From a virus (lineage: Duplodnaviria > Heunggongvirae > Uroviricota > Caudoviricetes), in IMG/VR virus record IMGVR_UViG_2671181056_000013, positions 1-60,485 of that record: a DNA stretch of 60,485 nt; one strand, 5' to 3'. Both the position numbers and the translations under genes were made by a program. Positions 47,685-59,258 of this stretch are shown here, piece by piece (position 1 is the first letter of the stretch; every line of letters starts with the position of its first letter). The notes under the pieces were generated by a model. That model had not been told where the DNA came from, did not search any database, and worked only from the letters and a program-made list of their open reading frames with translations.

Positions 47685-50600
47685 ATGTGGTACAGGGAAG
47701 GTACTATCACATTTACACAAGGCAGCAATACTCTGGTTGGTGCTGGGACAGCATGGAACGTTACGGCCAATGGTGTGTTGCCTGGCATGATTGTCGTCGC
47801 ACCTGATAATAAATTGTATGAAATTAAAAGCGTAACAAATGACACAACCTTAACGTTGGTTGAAAACTATACTGGTGAAACGCAAAGTGATATACCATGT
47901 AGGATCATCACTACCTACGAAGGAGATTTGACACAGTTTAGTGCGAGATTTACGGCTCTTTTATCACGAATGTCTGGTGATGCAAAAACAGTTCGAAATT
48001 GGTTAACTGCCGTAGATGAAGTTACTCTTGAGCGAGAAGATGGCACTAATGTTAATGTAAAACCTCTTTCTAAGATTATCGCGGAGCATAATAAGCACGT
48101 AGAATGGTATGAAAATAATACTAACGCAATTAATTCCGCAGGAGATAAAGCAAAACAGGCTGCGGCCAGTGCGTCGGCTGCGGCGAAGAGTGCGAATCTA
48201 GCAAGCAGTAAGGCTACTCAGGCATCTAATAGTGCGTTGGATGCTACAGCGTCTAAAAATGCAGCAAATAAAAGTGCATCAAGTGCTAAAGCATCAGAAA
48301 CAAGTGCTTTAGAGGCGAAGAACGCAGCTGCAATTTCTGCATCAACAGCTTCCACTAAGGCAACAGAAGCCACAAGTTCGGCTAATGCTGCGTTGGTCTC
48401 TAAAGAGGCTGCAAAATTATCTGAAATGAATGCTGCTTCTGGTGCTGGCAGTGCATCAACTTCTGCAAATCAGGCTAGAGAGTCGGCAAGGTCTGCGAAG
48501 ACATCCGCTAATCAGGCTTCAACTTATGCGTCTGCTGCTAGAGCTTCGAAGGATGAAGCTAGCCGAAAGTCTGCTGAAGCCTCAACTAGTGCTAGTAACG
48601 CATCATCGAAATCAGCTGAATCTGCGGCTAAAGCAGAAGAAGCAAAGCAAAGCCAAACATCAGCACTTGCATCGGCAGAGCGTGCAGAGATAGCTGCTAC
48701 TAGAGCAGAAAGAGCTTTGTCAGCGATATCATTACATGATGCCAGTTTGACTATGAAGGGTATTGTCAAATTAAGCAGTGAGACGAGCAGTTCGTCAGAA
48801 GAATTTGCAGCAACACCAAAAGCAGTAAAGGCTGCGTTTGATCTTGCTAAATCAAAATATACTGCAAATGACGCGACAACTTCACAAAAAGGGCTGGTTC
48901 AATTAAGTAGCGATACAAATAACGCCTCTGAATCATTGGCCGCAACAACAAAAGCGGTTAAAAGTGTAAAGGATCTTGCTGATAGAAAAGCAGCAATCAA
49001 CAGCCCAGCATTTACTGGCACACCAACGGCACCAACGGCGACTCAAGGCACTAATAATACGCAAATTGCCACAACTGCTTATGTAAGAGAAGCGATCTCA
49101 GGTCTTGTAGGATCATCACCTGAAGCGCTTGATACTCTTAATGAGTTGGCAAGGGCTTTGGGTGATGATCCCGATTTTGCCACAACAATGACGAACAAGT
49201 TGGCCACAAAACAACCTCTTGATGCTACGCTGACTGCACTGGCTGGACTAACAACAGCCGCTAATAAACTTCCTTATTTTACAGGGAATGATACAGCTGG
49301 ATTAGCAACAATAACTTCTGTTGGTCGAGATATTCTTTCTAAAGCAAGTGTACAGGCGATTATTCAGTATCTTGGATTGAAGGAAAATGGAACAAGTGGC
49401 GATAAAATACCTTTATTGAGTACAGCCAATACATGGAGTGCAAAGCAAACATTTAGTAATGGTCTTGCAGGCTCACTTAACGGAAATTCCGATACCGCAA
49501 CAAAATTAAAAGCAGCACGAAAAATTGGCGGAGTACCGTTTGATGGTTCATCAGATATAAATCTACCAGGTGTAAACTCAACAGGAACTCAGAGTACTAG
49601 TGGAAACGCTGCCTCTGCCACTAAGTTAGCAACACCTCGTTCAATTGGTGGAATGTTATTTGACGGCACTGCAAATATTGACTTACCAGGCGTTAACAAG
49701 GTTGGAAATCAGAGTACAACAGGTAATGCAGGGAGCGCAACGAGACTGCAAACGGCAAGAACAATAGGTGGGGTATCGTTTAATGGCACTGCAAATATTG
49801 ACTTACCTGGTGTCAATAAAGCTGGAAATCAGAACACGTCAGGTAATGCTGCAACGGCGACAAAACTTGCAACGGCACGAAAAATAAATGGGGTCAGTTT
49901 TGATGGCTCAAAGAATATAAGCATCACGCCAAAACAACTAGGTGCAGCAAAATATGTTGCTAATCTTGCTACGGGGAATACTCAAGAGTGGACAACTGCA
50001 CAATTTGTCGCATGGTTAAATTCACAAGGGGCATTTGATGCAACTCAGTGGAGCACACGTTGTAGCTGGTCTTATGGTAGTAACTGTTATATAGGAAATG
50101 CATCAACGGGATGTGGAGTTATACCTCTTGCTGGTTCTGTTATTGAGGTGTTTTCAACCGGTACAAGTAATTACACTATACGCATTACAACACCTTCAAC
50201 ATCTGGAGGTGCATCTGGTGCTGTTCTTAATAGTGAGTTTATTTATACATACAACGGCGATAACTATAGCCCAACATGGCGTCGTAATTACAGTTCTCAA
50301 AATAAACCAACGGCTTCAGAGATAGGCGCCCTTGCCTCAAATGGAAATGCAGTTTCGGCTACGAAACTGAAAACAGCGAGAAATATAGGGGGGGTATCGT
50401 TTGATGGTACAGCGAATATAGATTTACCAGGCGTTAACAAAGCTGGAAATCAGAACACATCAGGTAATGCTGCAACAGCTACTAAATTAAAAACATCAAG
50501 AACAATAGGTGGAGTATCATTTGATGGTAGCGCAAACATTAATCTTCCAGGTGTGAATACGTCAGGAAATCAGAATACATCTGGTAACGCAGCATCAGCA

Positions 50601-51056
50601 ACTAAGCTACAAACAGCACGTACTATAAATGGAGTAAGTTTCGACGGAACAAAAAATATTAGTATAAGTGCCGCTCAAATTGGTGCTTTGCCTATCGGTG
50701 GGGGTACGATAACAGGTAATTTGACTGTAAATGGAAATGGCTCATTTAATGATGTTCAGATCCGCTCAGATAAGCGTAACAAGCGTAATCTGGTAAAGCT
50801 AGATAATGCGTTAGATCGTTTGGAGGCACTTACTGGTTATCTTTATGAAATCCAACTCTCTGATGATAGTTGGAAAACGTCAGTTGGTTTAATTGCTCAG
50901 GATGCACAAAAAGCATTGTCTGAACTGGTAACTGAAGACACAGACGTTATATCTGGTGAAAAACGTCTGTGTCTTAACTACAACGGCATAATTGCATTGT
51001 TAGTCGAGGGCTTTAAAACACTTCGTCATGAGATTAAAGAACTTCGGGAGAAGTAA
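47685..51056 (+). CDS. tail fibre with internal repeats and a C-terminal intramolecular chaperone domain
   Basis: Repeated GVSFDG..NI.LPGVN..GNQNTSGNAA.ATKL units, and a C-terminus resembling auto-cleaving chaperone domains of L-shaped fibres and endosialidases. Confidence 0.8.
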   Translation: MWYREGTITFTQGSNTLVGAGTAWNVTANGVLPGMIVVAPDNKLYEIKSVTNDTTLTLVENYTGETQSDIPCRIITTYEGDLTQFSARFTALLSRMSGDAKTVRNWLTAVDEVTLEREDGTNVNVKPLSKIIAEHNKHVEWYENNTNAINSAGDKAKQAAASASAAAKSANLASSKATQASNSALDATASKNAANKSASSAKASETSALEAKNAAAISASTASTKATEATSSANAALVSKEAAKLSEMNAASGAGSASTSANQARESARSAKTSANQASTYASAARASKDEASRKSAEASTSASNASSKSAESAAKAEEAKQSQTSALASAERAEIAATRAERALSAISLHDASLTMKGIVKLSSETSSSSEEFAATPKAVKAAFDLAKSKYTANDATTSQKGLVQLSSDTNNASESLAATTKAVKSVKDLADRKAAINSPAFTGTPTAPTATQGTNNTQIATTAYVREAISGLVGSSPEALDTLNELARALGDDPDFATTMTNKLATKQPLDATLTALAGLTTAANKLPYFTGNDTAGLATITSVGRDILSKASVQAIIQYLGLKENGTSGDKIPLLSTANTWSAKQTFSNGLAGSLNGNSDTATKLKAARKIGGVPFDGSSDINLPGVNSTGTQSTSGNAASATKLATPRSIGGMLFDGTANIDLPGVNKVGNQSTTGNAGSATRLQTARTIGGVSFNGTANIDLPGVNKAGNQNTSGNAATATKLATARKINGVSFDGSKNISITPKQLGAAKYVANLATGNTQEWTTAQFVAWLNSQGAFDATQWSTRCSWSYGSNCYIGNASTGCGVIPLAGSVIEVFSTGTSNYTIRITTPSTSGGASGAVLNSEFIYTYNGDNYSPTWRRNYSSQNKPTASEIGALASNGNAVSATKLKTARNIGGVSFDGTANIDLPGVNKAGNQNTSGNAATATKLKTSRTIGGVSFDGSANINLPGVNTSGNQNTSGNAASATKLQTARTINGVSFDGTKNISISAAQIGALPIGGGTITGNLTVNGNGSFNDVQIRSDKRNKRNLVKLDNALDRLEALTGYLYEIQLSDDSWKTSVGLIAQDAQKALSELVTEDTDVISGEKRLCLNYNGIIALLVEGFKTLRHEIKELREK

Positions 51057-53359: not shown

Positions 53360-53758
53360 ATGCATACTGCGCTTAACGCATCTCGTTCTATTCAGACGAT
53401 AAGAGACTGTACCAAGATGATCGCATCGGTTCCGTTGCGGCATTGGAATGACTCGCTCCAAATTCGTGAAATGAACAAACCGGGTATGCTTAAGGATCAG
53501 CGTTTCATCGTTAACCTTAAAAGTGACGTTGAAGAAGGCAAGTTTACCATCAAATTGTTTGCAGAAATGATGGTGCTCAACAATCGGTTACGTTTTCTTG
53601 TTAAGCCAGAAAAACAGTTTCCCGATGTTGTGCGTTGTGAACAGGATGCTTTCTATGAGATTGAAAGCAAAATAGCTAAATTTATCAAAGATAAATACCG
53701 CGTAGATGTTAAAATAGCGAAACTGGATTCATCTACGGATATGCGGCTTGCTAACTAA
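53360..53758 (+). CDS. hypothetical protein (132 aa), first gene of a two-gene cassette
   Basis: AT-rich promoter-like region upstream; GGTGGAAA RBS; stop abuts the next start. Confidence 0.55.
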   Translation: MHTALNASRSIQTIRDCTKMIASVPLRHWNDSLQIREMNKPGMLKDQRFIVNLKSDVEEGKFTIKLFAEMMVLNNRLRFLVKPEKQFPDVVRCEQDAFYEIESKIAKFIKDKYRVDVKIAKLDSSTDMRLAN

Positions 53759-54535
53759 ATGTCACCATCATTCATAGCAGAGTATTCAAAAGTACTGTCT
53801 GATTTCCCTGAATGTGAAGCAAGAGAGAAAATCAGAGTTGGCTACATGGTTAACTCTGATTTTTCTGTTTTACGGCTCACAGAGTGGTCCTTGATCGGGT
53901 CTAATTATGATTACTGTTTGACAGTGTCATTTGTAGGCGACCCTGATGCAGATTGGCTTCAAGAACATGCAATGGATCTTGACGAGCAGGGGCATTCAGA
54001 AGAAGAGATAGTTCATAGTGTTCGTGAATTAGTTGGTGATGAGCAAGAAGATGATGACGGCATTCAGATCGCCAGGTTCGTCTACAAACGATTCCAGTTT
54101 CGCTCACAAAAAGGCTCTCACCTTGGGGTCCAGATTAAAGGGGCATTTGTAACCCCTTCAAAGGAACAAAAGGGACTTGCTAGAAGAGTTTACAATTTTC
54201 TTCTCAATTGGCATGACCATGTAGTATGTGATGACCATCAGACGGTTTACGGTGCCAGAATTTGGGCTGTAGGTATGCTTTTGGTCGGTCGTGTCCAAAT
54301 CTATGACAATTTAAATAAAGAATTTATAGATGTCCTTGTTGAAGGTGGTATTGGGCAGAATGGCGTCAAACCGTGGGATGCGCTGCTATTGAACAGCGAG
54401 GCTCAGTTACGTCACTGGAACCCTATGGCTGTCAGCATAGACCCATCTAGTCAGATTCTCACCATCATCTCCAAAGAAGACCGCCACATTGAAGTGGGCG
54501 TTACAACATTTGATGCCAGGTCTACCAACCACTAA
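53759..54535 (+). CDS. hypothetical protein (258 aa), second gene of the cassette
   Basis: Start immediately follows the upstream stop; terminator 9 nt after its own stop. Confidence 0.6.
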   Translation: MSPSFIAEYSKVLSDFPECEAREKIRVGYMVNSDFSVLRLTEWSLIGSNYDYCLTVSFVGDPDADWLQEHAMDLDEQGHSEEEIVHSVRELVGDEQEDDDGIQIARFVYKRFQFRSQKGSHLGVQIKGAFVTPSKEQKGLARRVYNFLLNWHDHVVCDDHQTVYGARIWAVGMLLVGRVQIYDNLNKEFIDVLVEGGIGQNGVKPWDALLLNSEAQLRHWNPMAVSIDPSSQILTIISKEDRHIEVGVTTFDARSTNH

Positions 54536-54565: not shown

Positions 54566-54697
54566 TATTAAGTCCTTACCAAATCTATGTACCTATCATT
54601 AAACCTTTACACAGCAGCCGTAGGCATTTAGGCTATATCACATATAAGAAAACAAGTTGTTTCAGACAATAATAATAGACGCAAAGGAAACTCTCCA

Positions 54698-55366
54698 ATG
54701 ACCAAGATCTTTGTGGTTGGCGGCACAAAGGGCGGGCCTGGCAAATCCACCGTTGCCCAGCAAATTGCCGTTTGCCTGAAAGTCAAAAAGAAGAAGAAGG
54801 TTTATATTACCGATATAGATATTCAGCGCACGACAACGAGCTGGTGTGAAGACCGTCGACAGAACGAAGACCTTGAGCTGATTCCTTTTGCATACGTTCA
54901 GGATGACATCATTAAGCACCTAAAATCGCTTCAGGGTAGAGCTGAGTTTGTAGTGGTAGATGCTGGTGGCTTCGACTCCGAAATTCAGCGACAAGCGATG
55001 CTGATGGCTGACGTTATCATTATCCCGCTGCGTCCTAAGCGTCGTGATTTGAAATCTTTACGTGACATCGATCCTATTATCGACAATGTTCGCAATGTAA
55101 ACGATAAAGTGAAGGTCCGCGCGGTCATGAACCAGTGCCCGGCTTTGCCATCACAAGTGTCTCGCATTCTGGCGGCTAAAGAGATTGTTGAGACGTTTGG
55201 CATCGAGTCTGCGCCAGTCAATCTATATAACCGCAACGTCTATGATGATGCGGAAGAGTCTGGTCGTTCTATCTTTGAAATGACCGGTAGCGAGCGCGAC
55301 AAAAAGGCGGAAGCCGAGTTTGAAGAATTTGTAGATTATCTGTTGAGTCTGGAGGAAGAAGAATAA
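54698..55366 (+). CDS. ParA/MinD-family partition ATPase
   Basis: Deviant Walker A GGTKGGPGKST; 222 aa, typical small ParA size. Confidence 0.8.
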   Translation: MTKIFVVGGTKGGPGKSTVAQQIAVCLKVKKKKKVYITDIDIQRTTTSWCEDRRQNEDLELIPFAYVQDDIIKHLKSLQGRAEFVVVDAGGFDSEIQRQAMLMADVIIIPLRPKRRDLKSLRDIDPIIDNVRNVNDKVKVRAVMNQCPALPSQVSRILAAKEIVETFGIESAPVNLYNRNVYDDAEESGRSIFEMTGSERDKKAEAEFEEFVDYLLSLEEEE

Positions 55367-55725
55367 TGTCCATGAAAATGGGTGACCTAGCAAAGCGCAA
55401 AGAGTCTGATGCACCGGCTAAGAACACAACTCCTTTGCGCCAACCAGTCAGACCACAGGGACGCCCGACTCGTGGCAAAGAGAAAATTAAAAGCCGCACA
55501 ATGTCACTGGAGGACGAATACTTCGAACTGCTGGAGATGATGAAGTTCATCCCTCGCTTCGAGAAATTCACCCGCTCTGATGTGATTCGTGCTGCTATTT
55601 TCCATCTGGCAGAGAAGTCACCGCAGGAAATCGAGGACATCGTGAAGCTTAACGAGGCGATCACTGCTGCCGATGTCACGATGCGTACCGATGAAATTAA
55701 ACGCGAGTTAATGAAGAAAGGTTGA
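55366..55725 (+). CDS. putative partition partner protein (ParG/ParB-like adaptor)
   Basis: Overlapping start with parA-like (ATAATG); basic N-terminus. Call rests on position. Confidence 0.5.
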   Translation: MSMKMGDLAKRKESDAPAKNTTPLRQPVRPQGRPTRGKEKIKSRTMSLEDEYFELLEMMKFIPRFEKFTRSDVIRAAIFHLAEKSPQEIEDIVKLNEAITAADVTMRTDEIKRELMKKG

Positions 55726-55734
55726 TATAAATCT

Positions 55735-55764
55735 CTAAGGCTGGTCTGCATTGGACAGCCTTAG
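55735..55764. terminator. hairpin between convergent genes (CTAAGGCTG...CAGCCTTAG)
   Basis: 9-bp stem with 12-nt loop; the flanking A/T runs are weak. Confidence 0.45.
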
Positions 55765-55785
55765 AAATATTTCGTTCTATGAAAG

Positions 55786-56859
55786 CTATTCGTAGTTAAG
55801 CTCACCGAACAGACTGAACATCAAGTCACCATCCAAAATTTCAAAGGGCAACTCAACATACTCATCCTTATGTCTCGGAATTGCATTGCCGTCGTTAGGG
55901 GCATTCTTGGTATAACCTTTTACATGTTTACCGTTTTCTTTTGTATACGGCAGCACGACAATTCGACCGTGATTTTTTGAAATGATAGTTCCTTCTTTCC
56001 AGAGCGTATTGCCTCTTGAGGTGGTTTCGCTTTCGCTAGCAACTTTAACACTCCAACCTACCTGATTTTTGTCCTCAAACCAGAAAACAAAGTTGCCAAC
56101 AACCAGTACCTTTTGCCCATTCCTGAGAGCTTCATCCAGCATTCTTTTTACGCTGGCGAGTTGCAGTAACCGGTTAGCACGCGGCAGAAGCATTGAGCGA
56201 ATAGTCGCTTTTGTTTTTCCCCAATGTGCAGCACCTGATAAACCAAAACCTCTGGCTATGCGTTCTTGGTAGCAGATCTTCGCTGTCTTAGCTTTGTTGT
56301 TATATGAACATTCCCAAGTGTTAGGAGCAACGAGTTGAAGTGAAACTTGGAATTTGGGAAGAAAAACAAAATGTAAGTAAGGCATCTCGCTTAGCACGTC
56401 AAAAAGGGGTTGACGCAAAGTTTCGTAATCTGGGTTAATTATTAACTCATTTAATGTCACTCGCGGATCGTTGGCGTGTGCCTTAATTGCTTCGTTGAGC
56501 ATTATATACTCTTCATCCATGAGACGTGATTTGGCTTTGAGTGCTTTGTCAACTTTCAAACGCAATGACTTCTTTTGAAACATAGATAGAGGAAGTTTTT
56601 CAATGTCAAAGCTCACGTTTTTATTCAGCTCTAATGCCGCTTTTCTTGCTTCAGGATAGTTATCGTAGTCGTCATCAACAGCGTGGTTTGGCATACCACG
56701 ATCAACATATCGCCGATACCAAGCAAGGGTTCCATCATTACGGAGTTTCAGACAGAACATCGACCATTTATTCCGTTCATATTTAGGCTGAGGCCAAAAA
56801 GCCAGTTCGGGAAGGCCATATCCTGGAAGTCTATTCATGCGCATGGTGACAATATCCAC
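55786..56859 (-). CDS. hypothetical protein (357 aa), lone minus-strand gene in a plus-strand region
   Basis: Long ORF with its own upstream region containing palindrome copy 2. Confidence 0.65.
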   Translation of the reverse strand: MDIVTMRMNRLPGYGLPELAFWPQPKYERNKWSMFCLKLRNDGTLAWYRRYVDRGMPNHAVDDDYDNYPEARKAALELNKNVSFDIEKLPLSMFQKKSLRLKVDKALKAKSRLMDEEYIMLNEAIKAHANDPRVTLNELIINPDYETLRQPLFDVLSEMPYLHFVFLPKFQVSLQLVAPNTWECSYNNKAKTAKICYQERIARGFGLSGAAHWGKTKATIRSMLLPRANRLLQLASVKRMLDEALRNGQKVLVVGNFVFWFEDKNQVGWSVKVASESETTSRGNTLWKEGTIISKNHGRIVVLPYTKENGKHVKGYTKNAPNDGNAIPRHKDEYVELPFEILDGDLMFSLFGELNYE

Positions 56860-56964
56860 GAGGCTAAAACACTAATTCTAACATGATCTCCCTTGATAAA
56901 TCTGTCAATGACATAGCATCTGGAGTTGGAGTCAAATTATGTTGTTCTTGGTATCCATTAGGAG

Positions 56965-57017
56965 CCTGTTTCTGTATATAAATAATAAGTAACTTATTAA
57001 ATATATACGGAAGCAGG
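56965..57017. repeat. 55-bp imperfect palindrome, copy 2 (two substitutions relative to copy 1)
   Basis: CCTGTTTCTGTATATAT...ATATATACGGAAGCAGG; both substitutions keep pairing as G-U in plus-strand RNA. Confidence 0.7.
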
Positions 57018-57124
57018 TCTTTTAAAAGACACCACCAGAACAACTCCCTTCCGTTTTCACTTCCAAAAACTGACACCAGTCGCTATCATCCGTCCATTGT
57101 GATAAGTAAGTAACTACCTACCAG

Positions 57125-57874
57125 GTGAGCCACATGAGCCAAATCTTTTTCGATACCATCGACAACGACCAGTACGACTTCATGACAGAGTGGAATACCG
57201 CTGTTATGGACAAGTGGGTCGCTGAAAACATTGGTTTGTCGCGCTGTAAAGACGAGGCTGAACTCTTCGAGACGAAGTGGTTTGATTACCGAGACATGCA
57301 TCCTCTTATGGCCACCTGTCTGTTTACGGAGGCATACAAACGTCAGTACTCAAATATCATGCTGACGCACGGTCGCGAACACTTTGAAACAGCTCCGTTC
57401 ACCACCGGGTTAAAACGCCTGCCTTATCAGGAGTTGTCGACTGCCAATAAAACGTCTCTATGGAAAGCACGCCAGTTTGCTGACCGCTATTGCTGCTCAT
57501 ACGACTACTTTATCTCCACCGTTCTTTCCGCAGCTGCACGACGGCTGTGGGACAAGCTGCCGCGCCCACAGCATTTGTGGCAGCCAGAGCTGGTTGAGAT
57601 ATTCGAAGAGAAATTAGCCAGACGCGCAACAACCCGTCTGGATGACTCTCTTGTTAGCTTTAAGCATATGGGAGACATGCAGTTCAACCCGATTCAGGAA
57701 AGCTATTTTGAGTGGATTCTGGAGTGTTTGCGCACCATCCCTCGCAGCAAGCGCATACGCGCAATTTTCTCCGCTATCTGGCTAATGGAAATCGTTCCAG
57801 AGCGCCTTATTTCCGCCCACTTTCCAGAAGAACTGGAAGAAGCACGGCGGTTTATTGATCCCCTATCTAATTAA
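57125..57874 (+). CDS. hypothetical protein (249 aa), possibly replication-associated
   Basis: Lies immediately upstream of the DnaB-like helicase. Confidence 0.55.
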   Translation: MSHMSQIFFDTIDNDQYDFMTEWNTAVMDKWVAENIGLSRCKDEAELFETKWFDYRDMHPLMATCLFTEAYKRQYSNIMLTHGREHFETAPFTTGLKRLPYQELSTANKTSLWKARQFADRYCCSYDYFISTVLSAAARRLWDKLPRPQHLWQPELVEIFEEKLARRATTRLDDSLVSFKHMGDMQFNPIQESYFEWILECLRTIPRSKRIRAIFSAIWLMEIVPERLISAHFPEELEEARRFIDPLSN

Positions 57875-57917
57875 CTAATACTAGAAAACAATTTGTTTAA
57901 AAAACAAAGGAAAGCAC

Positions 57918-59258
57918 ATGACAGAACTTTGCCATACAGGACGCGGGCTGTCCGAAGAGTTTGATGAAGATTTCCAGAACAGACTGACGGCATATTTTTG
58001 TCGTGATCACGAGTTTCTTACTCGTGCGGGAGATCTGGTTGTGCCTAGCCAATTTGCCAATGCGGCCAATGCCATATTGGTTAATATGGTTTCGGGCTAT
58101 TACCGTATGTACAAGAGCGCGCCCTCTTCATCTGCAATTCTGGATATGCTTAAGCGTGCGAAACGCGATAAGACTATCCGTGAGGAACTATTCGCCGATG
58201 TTGTTGCTGCGTTTAAGCGCATTCTTGCAGAAAAATTGTCCGATACCTCGTACATGGTTGACCAGGTATCAACCTTCGCAAAAAGTGTAGCGTTTGATGA
58301 TGCTCTGATTAAGGCTGCTGAACTGAAAGAGAAAGGCGACTTTCAGGGAGCGATGGCAATCATGGCTAAGGTTCAGCAGATTGGATCGAACGAAGCGACC
58401 GGAATCTATGACTACTACACCTCCGCAAGTGAGCGATTGAAAGCGCGTGAATATGAGGCTTCAGAGGAGTATGTGCCAAACAGCATTACAACTGGACTCC
58501 CTCTGCTCGATAGGTTGCTGTACCAAAAAGGCTGGGCGAAGCGTGAAATGGTGCTCTTCATGGGGTTCGCTAAATCCGGTAAATCGACCGCAATGGGTGA
58601 GTTTTCCATAAACGCAACGCTTGCTGGCTACAATGTTCTGTATCTCTCGCTGGAGGTTCACACCACCATTTTATCCGACCGTTTTGATGCAAGATTGTCG
58701 GAGACAGAAATGTCCAAGCTGGTGGAACGGCGCGATGAGGTTCATCGTAAGTTGGCAGAGTTGGGAGCCACGAAGGGGATTGGTAGTTTGTGGGTGGTTG
58801 AGCGTCCGTCAGGAAGTATGTCACCGGCAGATCTGGACCGTATGCTTAACAGCATGAAAGCCAACGGCATGGTGCCTGACATGGTTGTTGTCGACTACGC
58901 AGATTTGATGCGTGCCAGTTATGACCTTCGTGATGATCGCGCCAACATTCGTAGTATCTACACCGATTTACGTGCTCTTTATGACAAGCATAACGTTGCT
59001 GGGATCACGGCATCGCAGACAAACCGTGAAGGTGGCGCGTCAGAAGTTGCCACAATGATGCACGCTGCCGACAACATCGAAAAAGTACGTATTGCTGACC
59101 TGGTAATAACGATCAACAAAACCGAAGAAGAAGAAGCGAAAGGAGAGGCTCGTCTCTACTTTGCTGGTTCACGTAACCAGCAGGGAGGGATCAGCATTCG
59201 CGTTAAACAAAACCTCGAACAAATGCGCTTCATTGAGCGAATCTTAGACGTTACCTAA
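57918..59258 (+). CDS. DnaB-like replicative helicase
   Basis: RecA-fold Walker A GFAKSGKST in the C-terminal half; 446 aa. Confidence 0.8.
   Translation: MTELCHTGRGLSEEFDEDFQNRLTAYFCRDHEFLTRAGDLVVPSQFANAANAILVNMVSGYYRMYKSAPSSSAILDMLKRAKRDKTIREELFADVVAAFKRILAEKLSDTSYMVDQVSTFAKSVAFDDALIKAAELKEKGDFQGAMAIMAKVQQIGSNEATGIYDYYTSASERLKAREYEASEEYVPNSITTGLPLLDRLLYQKGWAKREMVLFMGFAKSGKSTAMGEFSINATLAGYNVLYLSLEVHTTILSDRFDARLSETEMSKLVERRDEVHRKLAELGATKGIGSLWVVERPSGSMSPADLDRMLNSMKANGMVPDMVVVDYADLMRASYDLRDDRANIRSIYTDLRALYDKHNVAGITASQTNREGGASEVATMMHAADNIEKVRIADLVITINKTEEEEAKGEARLYFAGSRNQQGGISIRVKQNLEQMRFIERILDVT

What the first reader, a model, noticed from the sequence alone, without database searches (positions are those of the whole stretch)
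55735..57017. Lone antisense 357-aa gene with private regulatory signals between partition and replication genes
The 55786-56859 ORF is the only minus-strand gene in a long plus-strand block. It is separated from the partner gene by a convergent hairpin and has the 55-bp palindrome in its upstream region. The protein has no motif I can recognise. Reverse-oriented single genes of this kind in phages are frequently accessory immunity or abortive-infection functions.
Basis: inference. Interest (0 to 1): 0.6.

Follow-up and report, generated by a model that had tools for sequence, protein, structure and literature searches.

The report
Orphan cargo gene in defence hotspot
The lone backward-facing gene is a self-contained accessory cassette in a swap-prone slot of an SSU5-type phage-plasmid, where related elements carry known or candidate anti-phage genes; it encodes a widespread, unnamed protein that is probably, but not provably here, a new single-gene phage-exclusion factor.

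Summary
The ORF is real, but its conserved start is ATG 56844 (352 aa), not GTG 56859. It is under purifying selection (dN/dS 0.08). It is the only non-shadow minus-strand gene in a ~37-kb plus-strand block.

The window is an SSU5-type phage-plasmid, 100% identical here to ~108-kb Shigella sonnei plasmids. The gene fills a replaceable slot (55726 to ~56960) between the parB-like gene and the replication module. Only 37 of 248 complete E. coli genomes with this backbone carry it. Relatives hold PD-T4-3, DUF2971/PDC-S31, KAP-NTPase/PDC-S49 or unknown genes there.

The 3' hairpin and a conserved extended -10 travel with the gene. The palindrome does not. It is a backbone element present whatever the cargo.

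Homologues (346 clusters at 90% identity, mostly Gammaproteobacteria) are solitary. They sit in the P2 gpA-gpQ hotspot, next to integrases, in a P2-like lysogeny operon, and beside Gabija, TIR and AbiTii genes.

No Pfam, NCBIfam, PADLOC or PDB match exists, and no convincing fold match. Distant relatives with other N-termini share a conserved C-terminal beta-rich module.

Best reading: a new candidate anti-phage exclusion gene. Function and mechanism are untested.

The parts
55726..56960 (.). Variable cargo slot (cassette) between the stop of the parB-like gene and the conserved palindrome
   Evidence: Alignments with PhiR41_1, Cyrano and SSU5 lose all similarity right after the parB-like stop (55725) and regain it a few bases before 56965. 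megablast coverage falls to 63-64% in relatives with other cargo.
55786..56844 (-). CDS, 352 aa, uncharacterised family (PHROG 22329). RefSeq annotates a 357-aa GTG start at 56859.
   Evidence: PHROG hit 9e-256 over residues 6-357. 346 homologous clusters, nearly all about 352 aa and starting MR. dN/dS 0.076 against the Salmonella allele. ATG-CGC start conserved in Klebsiella and Salmonella copies.
55731..55768 (.). Hairpin between the convergent parB-like gene and the ORF; probably a bidirectional terminator that belongs to the cassette
   Evidence: 13-nt arms, 92% complementary. Folding z-scores -3.3 and -4.4. Conserved with the ORF in Klebsiella, and in Salmonella (different 3' neighbour) with a compensatory stem change. 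Absent from relatives with other cargo, each of which has a different hairpin there.
56875..56883 (-). Extended -10 promoter-like element TGTTAGAAT, 31 nt upstream of the ATG
   Evidence: Unique in the window. TGTTA(G/A)AAT is conserved in the Klebsiella and Salmonella copies of the upstream region. The strict sigma-70 scan found no canonical -35/-10 pair. Function inferred, not shown.
56903..56908 (-). TTGACA hexamer, 22 nt upstream of the -10 hexamer (non-canonical spacing)
   Evidence: The TGACAGA core is conserved in all three ORF-carrying relatives, but its distance to the -10 varies (9-bp insertion in Klebsiella). Role uncertain.
56965..57017 (.). 53-bp palindrome: a backbone element at the right border of the slot, not part of the cassette
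   Evidence: 26-nt arms. Conserved in PhiR41_1, Cyrano, SSU5, Klebsiella and Salmonella relatives whatever the cargo. As plus-strand RNA it folds at -31.7 kcal/mol (z -8.6) and is followed by TCTTTT.
54698..55725 (+). Left conserved flank: ParA ATPase (54698-55366) and 119-aa parB-like partner (55366-55725)
   Evidence: Pfam MipZ/AAA_31/CbiA/ParA hits; PHROG 164 and PHROG 5111.
57125..59258 (+). Right conserved flank: PHROG 2500 gene (57125-57874) and DnaB-like helicase (57918-59258)
   Evidence: Found on plasmids in 248 of 5426 complete E. coli genomes.

Best explanation
The gene is an autonomous accessory cassette, a 'moron', carried in a recombination-prone cargo slot of an SSU5-type phage-plasmid.

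Shown:
- It is a real gene under purifying selection.
- It has its own terminator hairpin and a conserved extended -10.
- It is present in only a minority of otherwise near-identical replicons.
- Relatives have known or candidate anti-phage genes in its place.
- It belongs to a widespread family of solitary ~352-aa proteins that recur in prophage defence hotspots and defence islands.

Inferred function:
- It is transcribed on its own in the plasmid-prophage state.
- It protects the lysogen, and so the phage-plasmid, against competing phages or other mobile elements as a single-protein exclusion or abortive-infection factor.

Inferred mechanism (weakest step):
- The protein has no nuclease, NTPase, transmembrane or other effector signature.
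- The residues invariant across distant relatives are W, S, N, G, P, G, T and R in a beta-rich C-terminal module.
- It probably acts stoichiometrically rather than catalytically. The conserved C-terminal module would give a common assembly or target-binding function. The basic helices and the variable N-terminal beta-alpha region would recognise a phage component or nucleic acid. This is in the manner of P2 Tin rather than a nuclease-type system.
For: Cassette and hotspot:
- The slot borders are sharp.
- Alternative cargos at the same site are PD-T4-3 (1.6e-23, also on the minus strand), PDC-S31/DUF2971 (3e-41 and 2e-33), PDC-S49 KAP-type NTPase (about 1e-21), and an unknown two-gene set.
- Salmonella pHCM2-like plasmids stack DUF2971 next to this ORF.

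Presence/absence:
- 138 of 721 PLSDB matches cover at least 80% of the query.
- 37 of the 248 complete E. coli genomes with the backbone carry the ORF.
- IS1 disrupts it in one plasmid.

Own signals.

Selection: dN/dS 0.076.

Independent contexts of homologues:
- Serratia P2-like prophage, between gpA and the portal gene and next to PDC-M01A/B. PMC9122126 describes this gpA-gpQ interval in E. coli P2-like phages as a defence hotspot.
- P2-like vibriophage 1.202.O, in the repressor-integrase lysogeny operon.
- Salmonella lambdoid prophage end, next to the integrase.
- Pseudomonas prophage, between SMEK_N and SLATT genes.
- Pseudomonas, next to a Beta_protein gene, a P4 cII-like gene, Gabija-like genes and an AAA_15 gene.
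- Vibrio, directly after Gabija-like genes (GajA/GajB by Pfam domains) and before a HEPN_Toprim_N gene.
- Vibrio splendidus, between a CAP12-PCTIR TIR gene and a NERD/helicase gene.
- Shewanella P22-like prophage, near AbiTii.
- No partner gene is conserved across these contexts.

Domain logic: distant relatives with different N-termini, some with zinc ribbons, share only the C-terminal module.

Physical properties: the protein is basic overall (pI 9.3), and the 206-243 helix has pI 11.8.
Against: - There is no experimental or homology-based link to any defence system.
- PADLOC 2.0.0, Pfam, NCBIfam and PDB sequence searches are all empty.
- Hotspot cargo also includes anti-defence genes, toxin-antitoxin systems and fitness genes, so association does not prove defence.
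- The Pantoea plasmid context (next to umuDC-like, ParM and IS66 genes) is not defence-specific.
- The promoter is only a consensus match (one search found no canonical promoter), and the ribosome-binding site is weak.
- Expression in the prophage state is assumed.
- The C-terminal module has only moderate model confidence (pLDDT about 70).
Confidence: 0.5

Rival explanations
1. It is a counter-defence or inter-element competition factor. Examples would be an inhibitor of a host defence system, or a factor acting against rival plasmids or satellites. It would help the phage-plasmid establish or persist rather than protect the host from phages.
For: - Variable hotspots in phages and plasmids also hold anti-defence genes.
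- SSU5-group elements of S. sonnei are reported to carry the Rad anti-retron gene (bioRxiv 10.1101/2025.09.12.675607).
- The protein lacks enzymatic motifs, as many anti-defence binders do.
- The family occurs almost only on mobile elements or in islands.
Against: - In P2-like vibriophage 1.202.O it is co-oriented with the repressor and integrase, not with early lytic genes.
- It lies in the P2 gpA-gpQ slot and directly beside Gabija, TIR and HEPN genes in islands. Those places are typical of defence cargo.
- At 352 aa it is larger than most anti-defence proteins (general knowledge, not tested).
- In the window it is transcribed against the phage operons, with its own terminator.
Confidence: 0.17
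2. It is a maintenance, replication-control or life-cycle regulator of the phage-plasmid. Its position between the partition and replication modules and its nearness to the palindrome would reflect a role at the origin or in par/rep regulation.
For: - It lies between parAB and the helicase/primase module.
- The protein is basic with long basic helices.
Against: - About 85% of E. coli replicons with the same backbone lack it, and unrelated genes take its place.
- The palindrome is conserved without it.
- Homologues occur in unrelated prophages and chromosomal islands that have no par/rep genes.
- IS1 disrupts it in a plasmid that is still maintained.
Confidence: 0.05
3. It is another kind of lysogenic-conversion or selfish cargo. 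Examples would be a solitary toxin or addiction factor, or a host-fitness or virulence modifier with no role in phage or mobile-element conflict.
For: - In Salmonella it sits beside a NEL/LRR type III effector gene at a prophage end.
- In Pantoea it sits in a plasmid accessory region with an autotransporter gene nearby.
- The element circulates in epidemic drug-resistant S. sonnei lineages (bioRxiv 10.1101/2025.09.12.675607).
- The neighbouring variable site in relatives holds a TacA/TacT-type toxin-antitoxin pair.
Against: - There is no signal peptide or transmembrane segment evident in the model, and no secretion-associated neighbour that recurs.
- There is no adjacent small antitoxin-like ORF in the cassette. 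Only 60 nt separate its stop from parB.
- Most contexts are defence-type rather than virulence-type.
Confidence: 0.13
4. It is not a functional gene, only a chance or decaying ORF antisense to the backbone.
For: Weak ribosome-binding site, no canonical promoter, and inconsistent annotated starts of 357, 352 and 324 aa.
Against: - 346 homologous clusters with conserved length across genera.
- 59 invariant columns in a 33-sequence alignment.
- dN/dS 0.076.
- A confident AF2 model for residues 1-220.
Confidence: 0.01

Closest known systems
PD-T4-3 (single-gene anti-phage system from the E. coli functional selection, PMC9519451)
   Same: In Escherichia phage PhiR41_1 a 255-aa PD-T4-3 homologue occupies exactly the same slot, also on the minus strand and also solitary. 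It shares the cargo logic, position and orientation.
   Different: There is no sequence relationship. The window protein gives no PADLOC hit at E <= 0.1. Length and predicted architecture differ.
Cargo of the P2 gpA-gpQ hotspot (old, tin and others; Rousset et al. 2022, PMC9122126)
   Same: A 74%-identical homologue lies between gpA and the portal gene of a Serratia P2-like prophage. Like Tin, it is a solitary hotspot protein with no recognisable enzymatic domain, so a binding or poisoning mechanism is the natural analogy.
   Different: No similarity to any PADLOC model was detected, the Old model included. Whether that library holds a Tin model was not checked. No target is known. The Tin analogy concerns mode of action only and is untested.
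PDC-S31 (DUF2971) and PDC-S49 (KAP P-loop NTPase) candidate systems of PADLOC
   Same: They are alternative or co-resident cargo of the same slot in Cyrano, SSU5, pHCM2-like plasmids and E. coli plasmids. Like this gene, they are candidates supported by association.
   Different: They are unrelated proteins. This family is in none of the libraries searched.
T4 fibritin foldon (C-terminal trimerisation hairpin)
   Same: The best PDB sequence hit aligns GYTKNAPNDGNAIPRHKDEYVEL with the foldon [23 protein letters not shown]. The AF2 model puts a hairpin-like element there. The invariant R324 would match the foldon Arg.
   Different: E = 1.5, not significant. Other foldon-tagged PDB chains did not score. 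There was no fold-level match. This is a lead only.

Membership tests
Any PADLOC 2.0.0 defence or candidate family (including PD-T4-x, PD-Lambda-x, HEC, PDC, Old, Abi) | Significant match to the family HMM | tested here: not met
   0 families at E <= 0.1. Neighbouring and alternative cargo proteins matched readily in the same library.
Hotspot or defence-island cargo (operational class, not a homology family) | Sits in a variable slot bounded by conserved genes, with presence/absence polymorphism among close relatives and known defence genes as alternative occupants | tested here: met
Hotspot or defence-island cargo (operational class) | Homologues recur next to known defence genes in unrelated genomes | tested here: met
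   About ten independent contexts, with PADLOC or Pfam identities of neighbours. No formal enrichment statistic was computed.
Anti-phage defence system (functional class) | Reduces phage infection when expressed | not testable with these tools
   Needs phage challenge of a strain carrying the cloned cassette.
Pfam / NCBIfam curated families | Score above the curated cut-off | tested here: not met
   No hit for the window protein. Scanning 33 members at E <= 10 gave only scattered single-member noise.
Type II toxin-antitoxin module | Adjacent co-transcribed partner gene | tested here: not met
   The cassette holds one ORF. Its stop is 60 nt from parB, and only a 70-aa ORF overlapping the backbone palindrome lies upstream. 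No partner is conserved across contexts.
Core replication, partition or recombination protein of SSU5-type elements | Conserved in all related elements; homology to Rep, Par or recombinase families | tested here: not met
   Present in 37 of 248 E. coli and 138 of 721 PLSDB relatives. No such homology was found.
Fibritin foldon-like trimerisation motif | Significant sequence or fold match to the foldon; trimeric state | tested here: inconclusive
   HMM against PDB gave E 1.5. No fold hit. Oligomeric state cannot be tested here.
AP2 / integrase arm-type three-stranded DNA-binding domain (N-terminal module) | Significant profile or fold match | tested here: inconclusive

The most novel reading that the evidence does not exclude
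This is the founding member of an undescribed single-protein anti-phage defence family with no detectable structural relative. Its conserved C-terminal beta-rich module (W..G.I.S.N.G..IV.P......G..V.G[HY]T[KR]N....R) would be a new, non-enzymatic effector or assembly domain, reused with different N-terminal sensor regions (zinc ribbons, coiled coils) across phyla. If so, the phage-plasmid circulating in epidemic drug-resistant Shigella sonnei, reported as carrying no detectable defence system, would carry one after all.
Probability: 0.4. Interest if true: 0.65.

Novelty: new variant of a known kind. Interest (0 to 1): 0.5.

Why it matters
If the protein is a defence factor, three things follow.
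- It adds a new, mechanistically opaque family of about 350 clusters, spread over Enterobacterales, Vibrio, Aeromonas, Pseudomonas and Shewanella, with remote relatives in Myxococcota. That family would join the catalogue of single-gene anti-phage systems.
- It defines the parB-to-rep interval of SSU5-type phage-plasmids as a defence hotspot that can be mined systematically.
- It gives a testable reason why particular phage-plasmid variants persist in clinically important lineages such as MSM-associated drug-resistant S. sonnei and pHCM2-like plasmids of S. Typhi.

It also corrects the local annotation:
- the start codon is ATG 56844;
- the palindrome is a backbone element;
- the hairpin is the cassette's own terminator.

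If the gene has no anti-phage phenotype, it is still a well-defined orphan cargo family worth a structure.

Tried and rejected
- Sequence families. Pfam, NCBIfam and PADLOC on the protein gave nothing. Pfam on all 33 alignment members at E <= 10 gave noise only. Pfam on 20 distant relatives gave only zinc ribbons on some N-termini and one weak DUF6613 hit at E 0.005.
- PDB sequence search with the family profile. The best hit had E 1.5, a foldon-containing chimera.
- Structure prediction. The first AF2 model, from 33 sequences, left the most conserved C-terminal third unmodelled (pLDDT about 30). Adding distant relatives raised it to about 70.
- Internal repeats. hhalign between the three beta-alpha modules and the two long helices gave probabilities below 1% apart from a deliberately overlapping control pair, and 24% for the two helices. 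The repeat idea is rejected.
- Profile search with only the 104-aa C-terminal module in the word-indexed protein database. It returned just 10 short fragments, which was not a good use of a search.
- Literature. No paper mentions the accessions WP_039581784, WP_230467043, WP_268809494 or WP_243668210, the UniProt ids, or PHROG 22329.
- The idea that the palindrome regulates the ORF. Rejected by its conservation in relatives without the ORF.
- The GTG 56859 start. Rejected.
- A canonical sigma-70 promoter. None was found by the scan.
Full report
WHAT THE WINDOW IS

The region belongs to an SSU5-type phage-plasmid. Window 54600-58000 is 100% identical to ~108-kb Shigella sonnei plasmids (LR213459.1, NZ_CP053753.1 pMHMC-002 and others). 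It is 97-99% identical to many E. coli plasmids and to Escherichia phages CMS-2020a, PhiR41_1 and Cyrano over the flanks. The left flank encodes a ParA ATPase and a 119-aa partner. The right flank encodes a PHROG 2500 protein, a DnaB-like helicase and, beyond that, a primase. PMC9442613 describes pMHMC-002 and LR213459.1 as relatives of the resistance-free 109-kb IncFIB plasmid of MSM-associated drug-resistant S. sonnei.

CHECKING THE OBSERVATION

The ORF exists. It is the only non-shadow minus-strand ORF from about 22.6 kb to the end of the window.

The true start is almost certainly ATG 56844, giving 352 aa:
- Homologues are about 352 aa and begin MR.
- PHROG 22329 aligns from residue 6 of the 357-aa version.
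- ATG-CGC is conserved in the Klebsiella and Salmonella alleles, while the GTG is not.

The gene is under purifying selection. Against a 75%-identical Salmonella allele, dN/dS is 0.076, similar to the flanking core genes at 0.05-0.06.

The convergent hairpin at 55731-55768 is real. So is the 53-bp palindrome at 56965-57017.

WHICH SIGNALS BELONG TO THE GENE

Alignments with relatives carrying other cargo lose similarity immediately after the parB-like stop. They regain it a few bases before the palindrome. The replaceable unit is therefore about 55726-56960.

The palindrome is conserved in PhiR41_1, Cyrano and SSU5 themselves. It is also conserved in the Klebsiella and Salmonella ORF-carrying relatives. 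It is a backbone element. As plus-strand RNA it forms a -31.7 kcal/mol hairpin followed by TCTTTT. It could therefore be a terminator or insulator ahead of the replication module, or a protein-binding site. It is not this gene's private signal.

The 3' hairpin does travel with the gene. In a pHCM2-like Salmonella plasmid the ORF's 3' neighbour is a DUF2971 gene instead of parB. The CTAAGGC.G...C.GCCTTAG stem is still there, with a compensatory substitution.

Upstream, an extended -10 (TGTTAGAAT, 56875-56883, minus strand) is conserved as TGTTA(G/A)AAT in all three ORF-carrying lineages. No canonical -35/-10 pair exists.

The cassette thus looks like a self-contained moron, transcribed against the par and rep operons.

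THE SLOT IS A CARGO HOTSPOT

The same interval holds different genes in relatives:
- A minus-strand PD-T4-3 homologue in PhiR41_1 (1.6e-23).
- A DUF2971/PDC-S31 gene in Cyrano (3e-41) and SSU5 (2e-33, plus two unknown ORFs).
- A KAP-type P-loop NTPase matching PDC-S49 in E. coli pEC00678_4 and pTIC (about 1e-21).
- An unknown two-gene set in pTLYA-2.
- DUF2971 plus the present ORF in pHCM2-like Salmonella plasmids.

Of 721 PLSDB records matching the flanks, 138 cover at least 80% of the query. Among 5,426 complete E. coli genomes, 248 carry the replication module. Only 37 carry the ORF, all on plasmids and all at least 99% identical. In pCTX the ORF is split by IS1.

The gene is therefore dispensable cargo.

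THE FAMILY AND ITS OTHER HOMES

The word-indexed search found 346 clusters. The exhaustive profile search found 142 representatives at 50% identity. The full-length family is gammaproteobacterial: Enterobacterales, Vibrio, Aeromonas, Pseudomonas, Shewanella, Colwellia. Every copy is named hypothetical.

The contexts are strikingly consistent:
- A Serratia P2-like prophage, between gpA and the portal gene and beside PDC-M01A/B. In E. coli P2-like phages this is the old/tin hotspot of Rousset et al. (PMC9122126).
- The repressor-AAA ATPase-integrase lysogeny operon of P2-like vibriophage 1.202.O.
- The integrase end of a Salmonella lambdoid prophage.
- A Pseudomonas prophage, between SMEK_N and SLATT genes.
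- Pseudomonas loci with a Beta_protein gene, a P4 cII-like gene, Gabija-like genes or an AAA_15 gene.
- Directly after Gabija-like genes (GajA/GajB by Pfam domains) and before a HEPN_Toprim_N gene in Vibrio parahaemolyticus.
- Between a CAP12-PCTIR TIR gene and a NERD/helicase giant gene in V. splendidus.
- Near AbiTii in a Shewanella P22-like prophage.
- An Aeromonas integrase-bounded island.
- One Pantoea plasmid context that is merely 'accessory'.

No neighbour recurs, so the protein works alone.

Among 50,697 phage records only six encode it. All six are temperate: three Klebsiella SSU5-type and three records of the same P2-like vibriophage.

THE PROTEIN

There is no hit in Pfam, NCBIfam, PADLOC or PDB sequences.

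The second AF2 model (109 sequences, mean pLDDT 81) shows four elements in order:
- An N-terminal three-stranded sheet plus helix (residues 13-75).
- A long helix (88-122).
- A helix-sheet-helix unit (138-200).
- A long basic helix (208-241, pI 11.8), followed by a beta-rich C-terminal domain (246-336, pLDDT about 70) and a conserved acidic-hydrophobic tail.

The exhaustive search revealed remote relatives of 212-557 aa, including Myxococcota. These share either residues ~85-338 or only the last ~100 residues. Their N-termini differ, and some carry zinc ribbons.

Across all of them only W, S, N, G, P, G, T and R are invariant, within the motif W..G.I.S.N.G..(I/V)(I/V).P......G..V.G(H/Y)T(K/R)N....R. 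That residue set points to a structural or binding module rather than a metal- or nucleotide-dependent active site.

The best PDB sequence hit aligns the end of this module with the T4 fibritin foldon (E 1.5). I record this as a lead for oligomerisation, not as evidence.

INTERPRETATION

Shown:
- A real, selected, self-contained, dispensable cargo gene.
- A slot that otherwise holds known or candidate defence genes.
- A family that recurs as a solitary gene in the canonical defence hotspots of temperate phages and in defence islands.

Inferred (about 0.5): it is a single-protein anti-phage or anti-mobile-element exclusion factor, expressed in the plasmid-prophage state.

Inferred more weakly (about 0.2): it acts by binding rather than catalysis. 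The conserved C-terminal module would supply assembly or target engagement. The basic helices and variable N-terminal parts would supply recognition, in the manner of P2 Tin.

Rivals:
- Counter-defence or inter-element competition factor (0.17).
- Other lysogenic-conversion or selfish cargo (0.13).
- Maintenance or replication regulator (0.05, essentially excluded by distribution).
- Non-gene (0.01).

COMPARISON WITH WHAT IS KNOWN

The gene behaves like PD-T4-3, DUF2971/PDC-S31 and the P2 old/tin-slot cargos in position and genetics. It is a member of none of them.

A 2025 survey screened SSU5-group elements with DefenseFinder 1.3.0. It reported no detectable defence system in the S. sonnei pWPMR2-like clade or the S. 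Typhi pHCM2-like clade (bioRxiv 10.1101/2025.09.12.675607). pHCM2-like plasmids carry this gene. The window matches S. sonnei plasmids of that epidemic background. So the family appears to be outside that tool's models as well. I could not verify the clade assignment of the window itself.

No paper in the library mentions the family's accessions.

VERDICT

This is a solid, ordinary-looking kind of object, hotspot cargo, carrying an unstudied protein family with no detectable structural relative. It is a good candidate for a new single-gene defence system, but function and mechanism remain untested. Its interpretation is plausible and now better founded, but not demonstrated.

Noticed in passing
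window 56965-57017: The 53-bp palindrome is conserved across SSU5, Cyrano, PhiR41_1, Klebsiella and Salmonella relatives. As plus-strand RNA it folds at -31.7 kcal/mol (z -8.6) and is followed by TCTTTT. It may be a terminator or insulator between the par/cargo genes and the replication module, or an operator or origin-related site.
   Followed up: partly
window 53360-54535 (compare L001 480-1314, L021 8430-9264): A second variable site lies between the Rz/Rz1 genes and parA. The window has two unknown ORFs (PHROG 2594 and 3307). Cyrano and some E. coli relatives instead carry a TacA/TacT (KacT-type) acetyltransferase toxin-antitoxin pair on the opposite strand.
   Followed up: partly
L028 1369-3249 (Salmonella pHCM2-like plasmid CP090231.1): The slot can be stacked. 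A DUF2971/PDC-S31 gene on the plus strand sits between parB and the minus-strand homologue of this ORF, which keeps its own hairpin.
   Followed up: yes
L038 1824-3120 (E. coli pCTX, NZ_CP047004.1): An IS1 element is inserted in the ORF, leaving a 606-nt 5' fragment annotated. The plasmid is maintained without an intact copy.
   Followed up: yes
window 56844-56859; L039 4187-5260: Public annotations disagree on the start: RefSeq WP_243668210.1 has 357 aa from GTG, most E. coli records have 352 aa, and some S. sonnei records have 324 aa. Family conservation supports 352 aa.
   Followed up: yes
L008 7007-9597 (Pseudomonas brassicacearum prophage): The homologue is flanked at 53- and 56-nt gaps, on the same strand, by a SMEK_N protein (PADLOC Aga_REase-PNTD-like, 2.5e-36) and a SLATT 2TM effector. 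It is unclear whether it was inserted into a two-gene system or is co-transcribed with it.
   Followed up: no
window residues 310-332 of the 352-aa protein (about 55849-55917): The segment GYTKNAPNDGNAIPRHKDEYVEL resembles the T4 fibritin foldon [23 protein letters not shown]. This was the top PDB sequence hit, with E 1.5. It is not significant, but it suggests testing for trimerisation.
   Followed up: partly
L040 4187-6218 (Vibrio phage 1.202.O): An AAA_21-type ATPase and a 209-aa unknown ORF lie between the repressor and integrase of this P2-like phage, in the same operon as the homologue. They look like another candidate defence pair.
   Followed up: no
window 47685-51056: The 1123-aa tail-fibre-like ORF contains several near-identical internal repeats of the type GNQNTSGNAATATKL.TAR.I.GVSFDG..NI.LPGVN.
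   Followed up: no
L001 2265-2624 (phage Cyrano): The 119-aa parB-like partner of ParA (PHROG 5111) is annotated 'RelE/ParE putative toxin' in Cyrano. Nothing here supports that: it has no Pfam hit, and its position is that of a partition adaptor.
   Followed up: no
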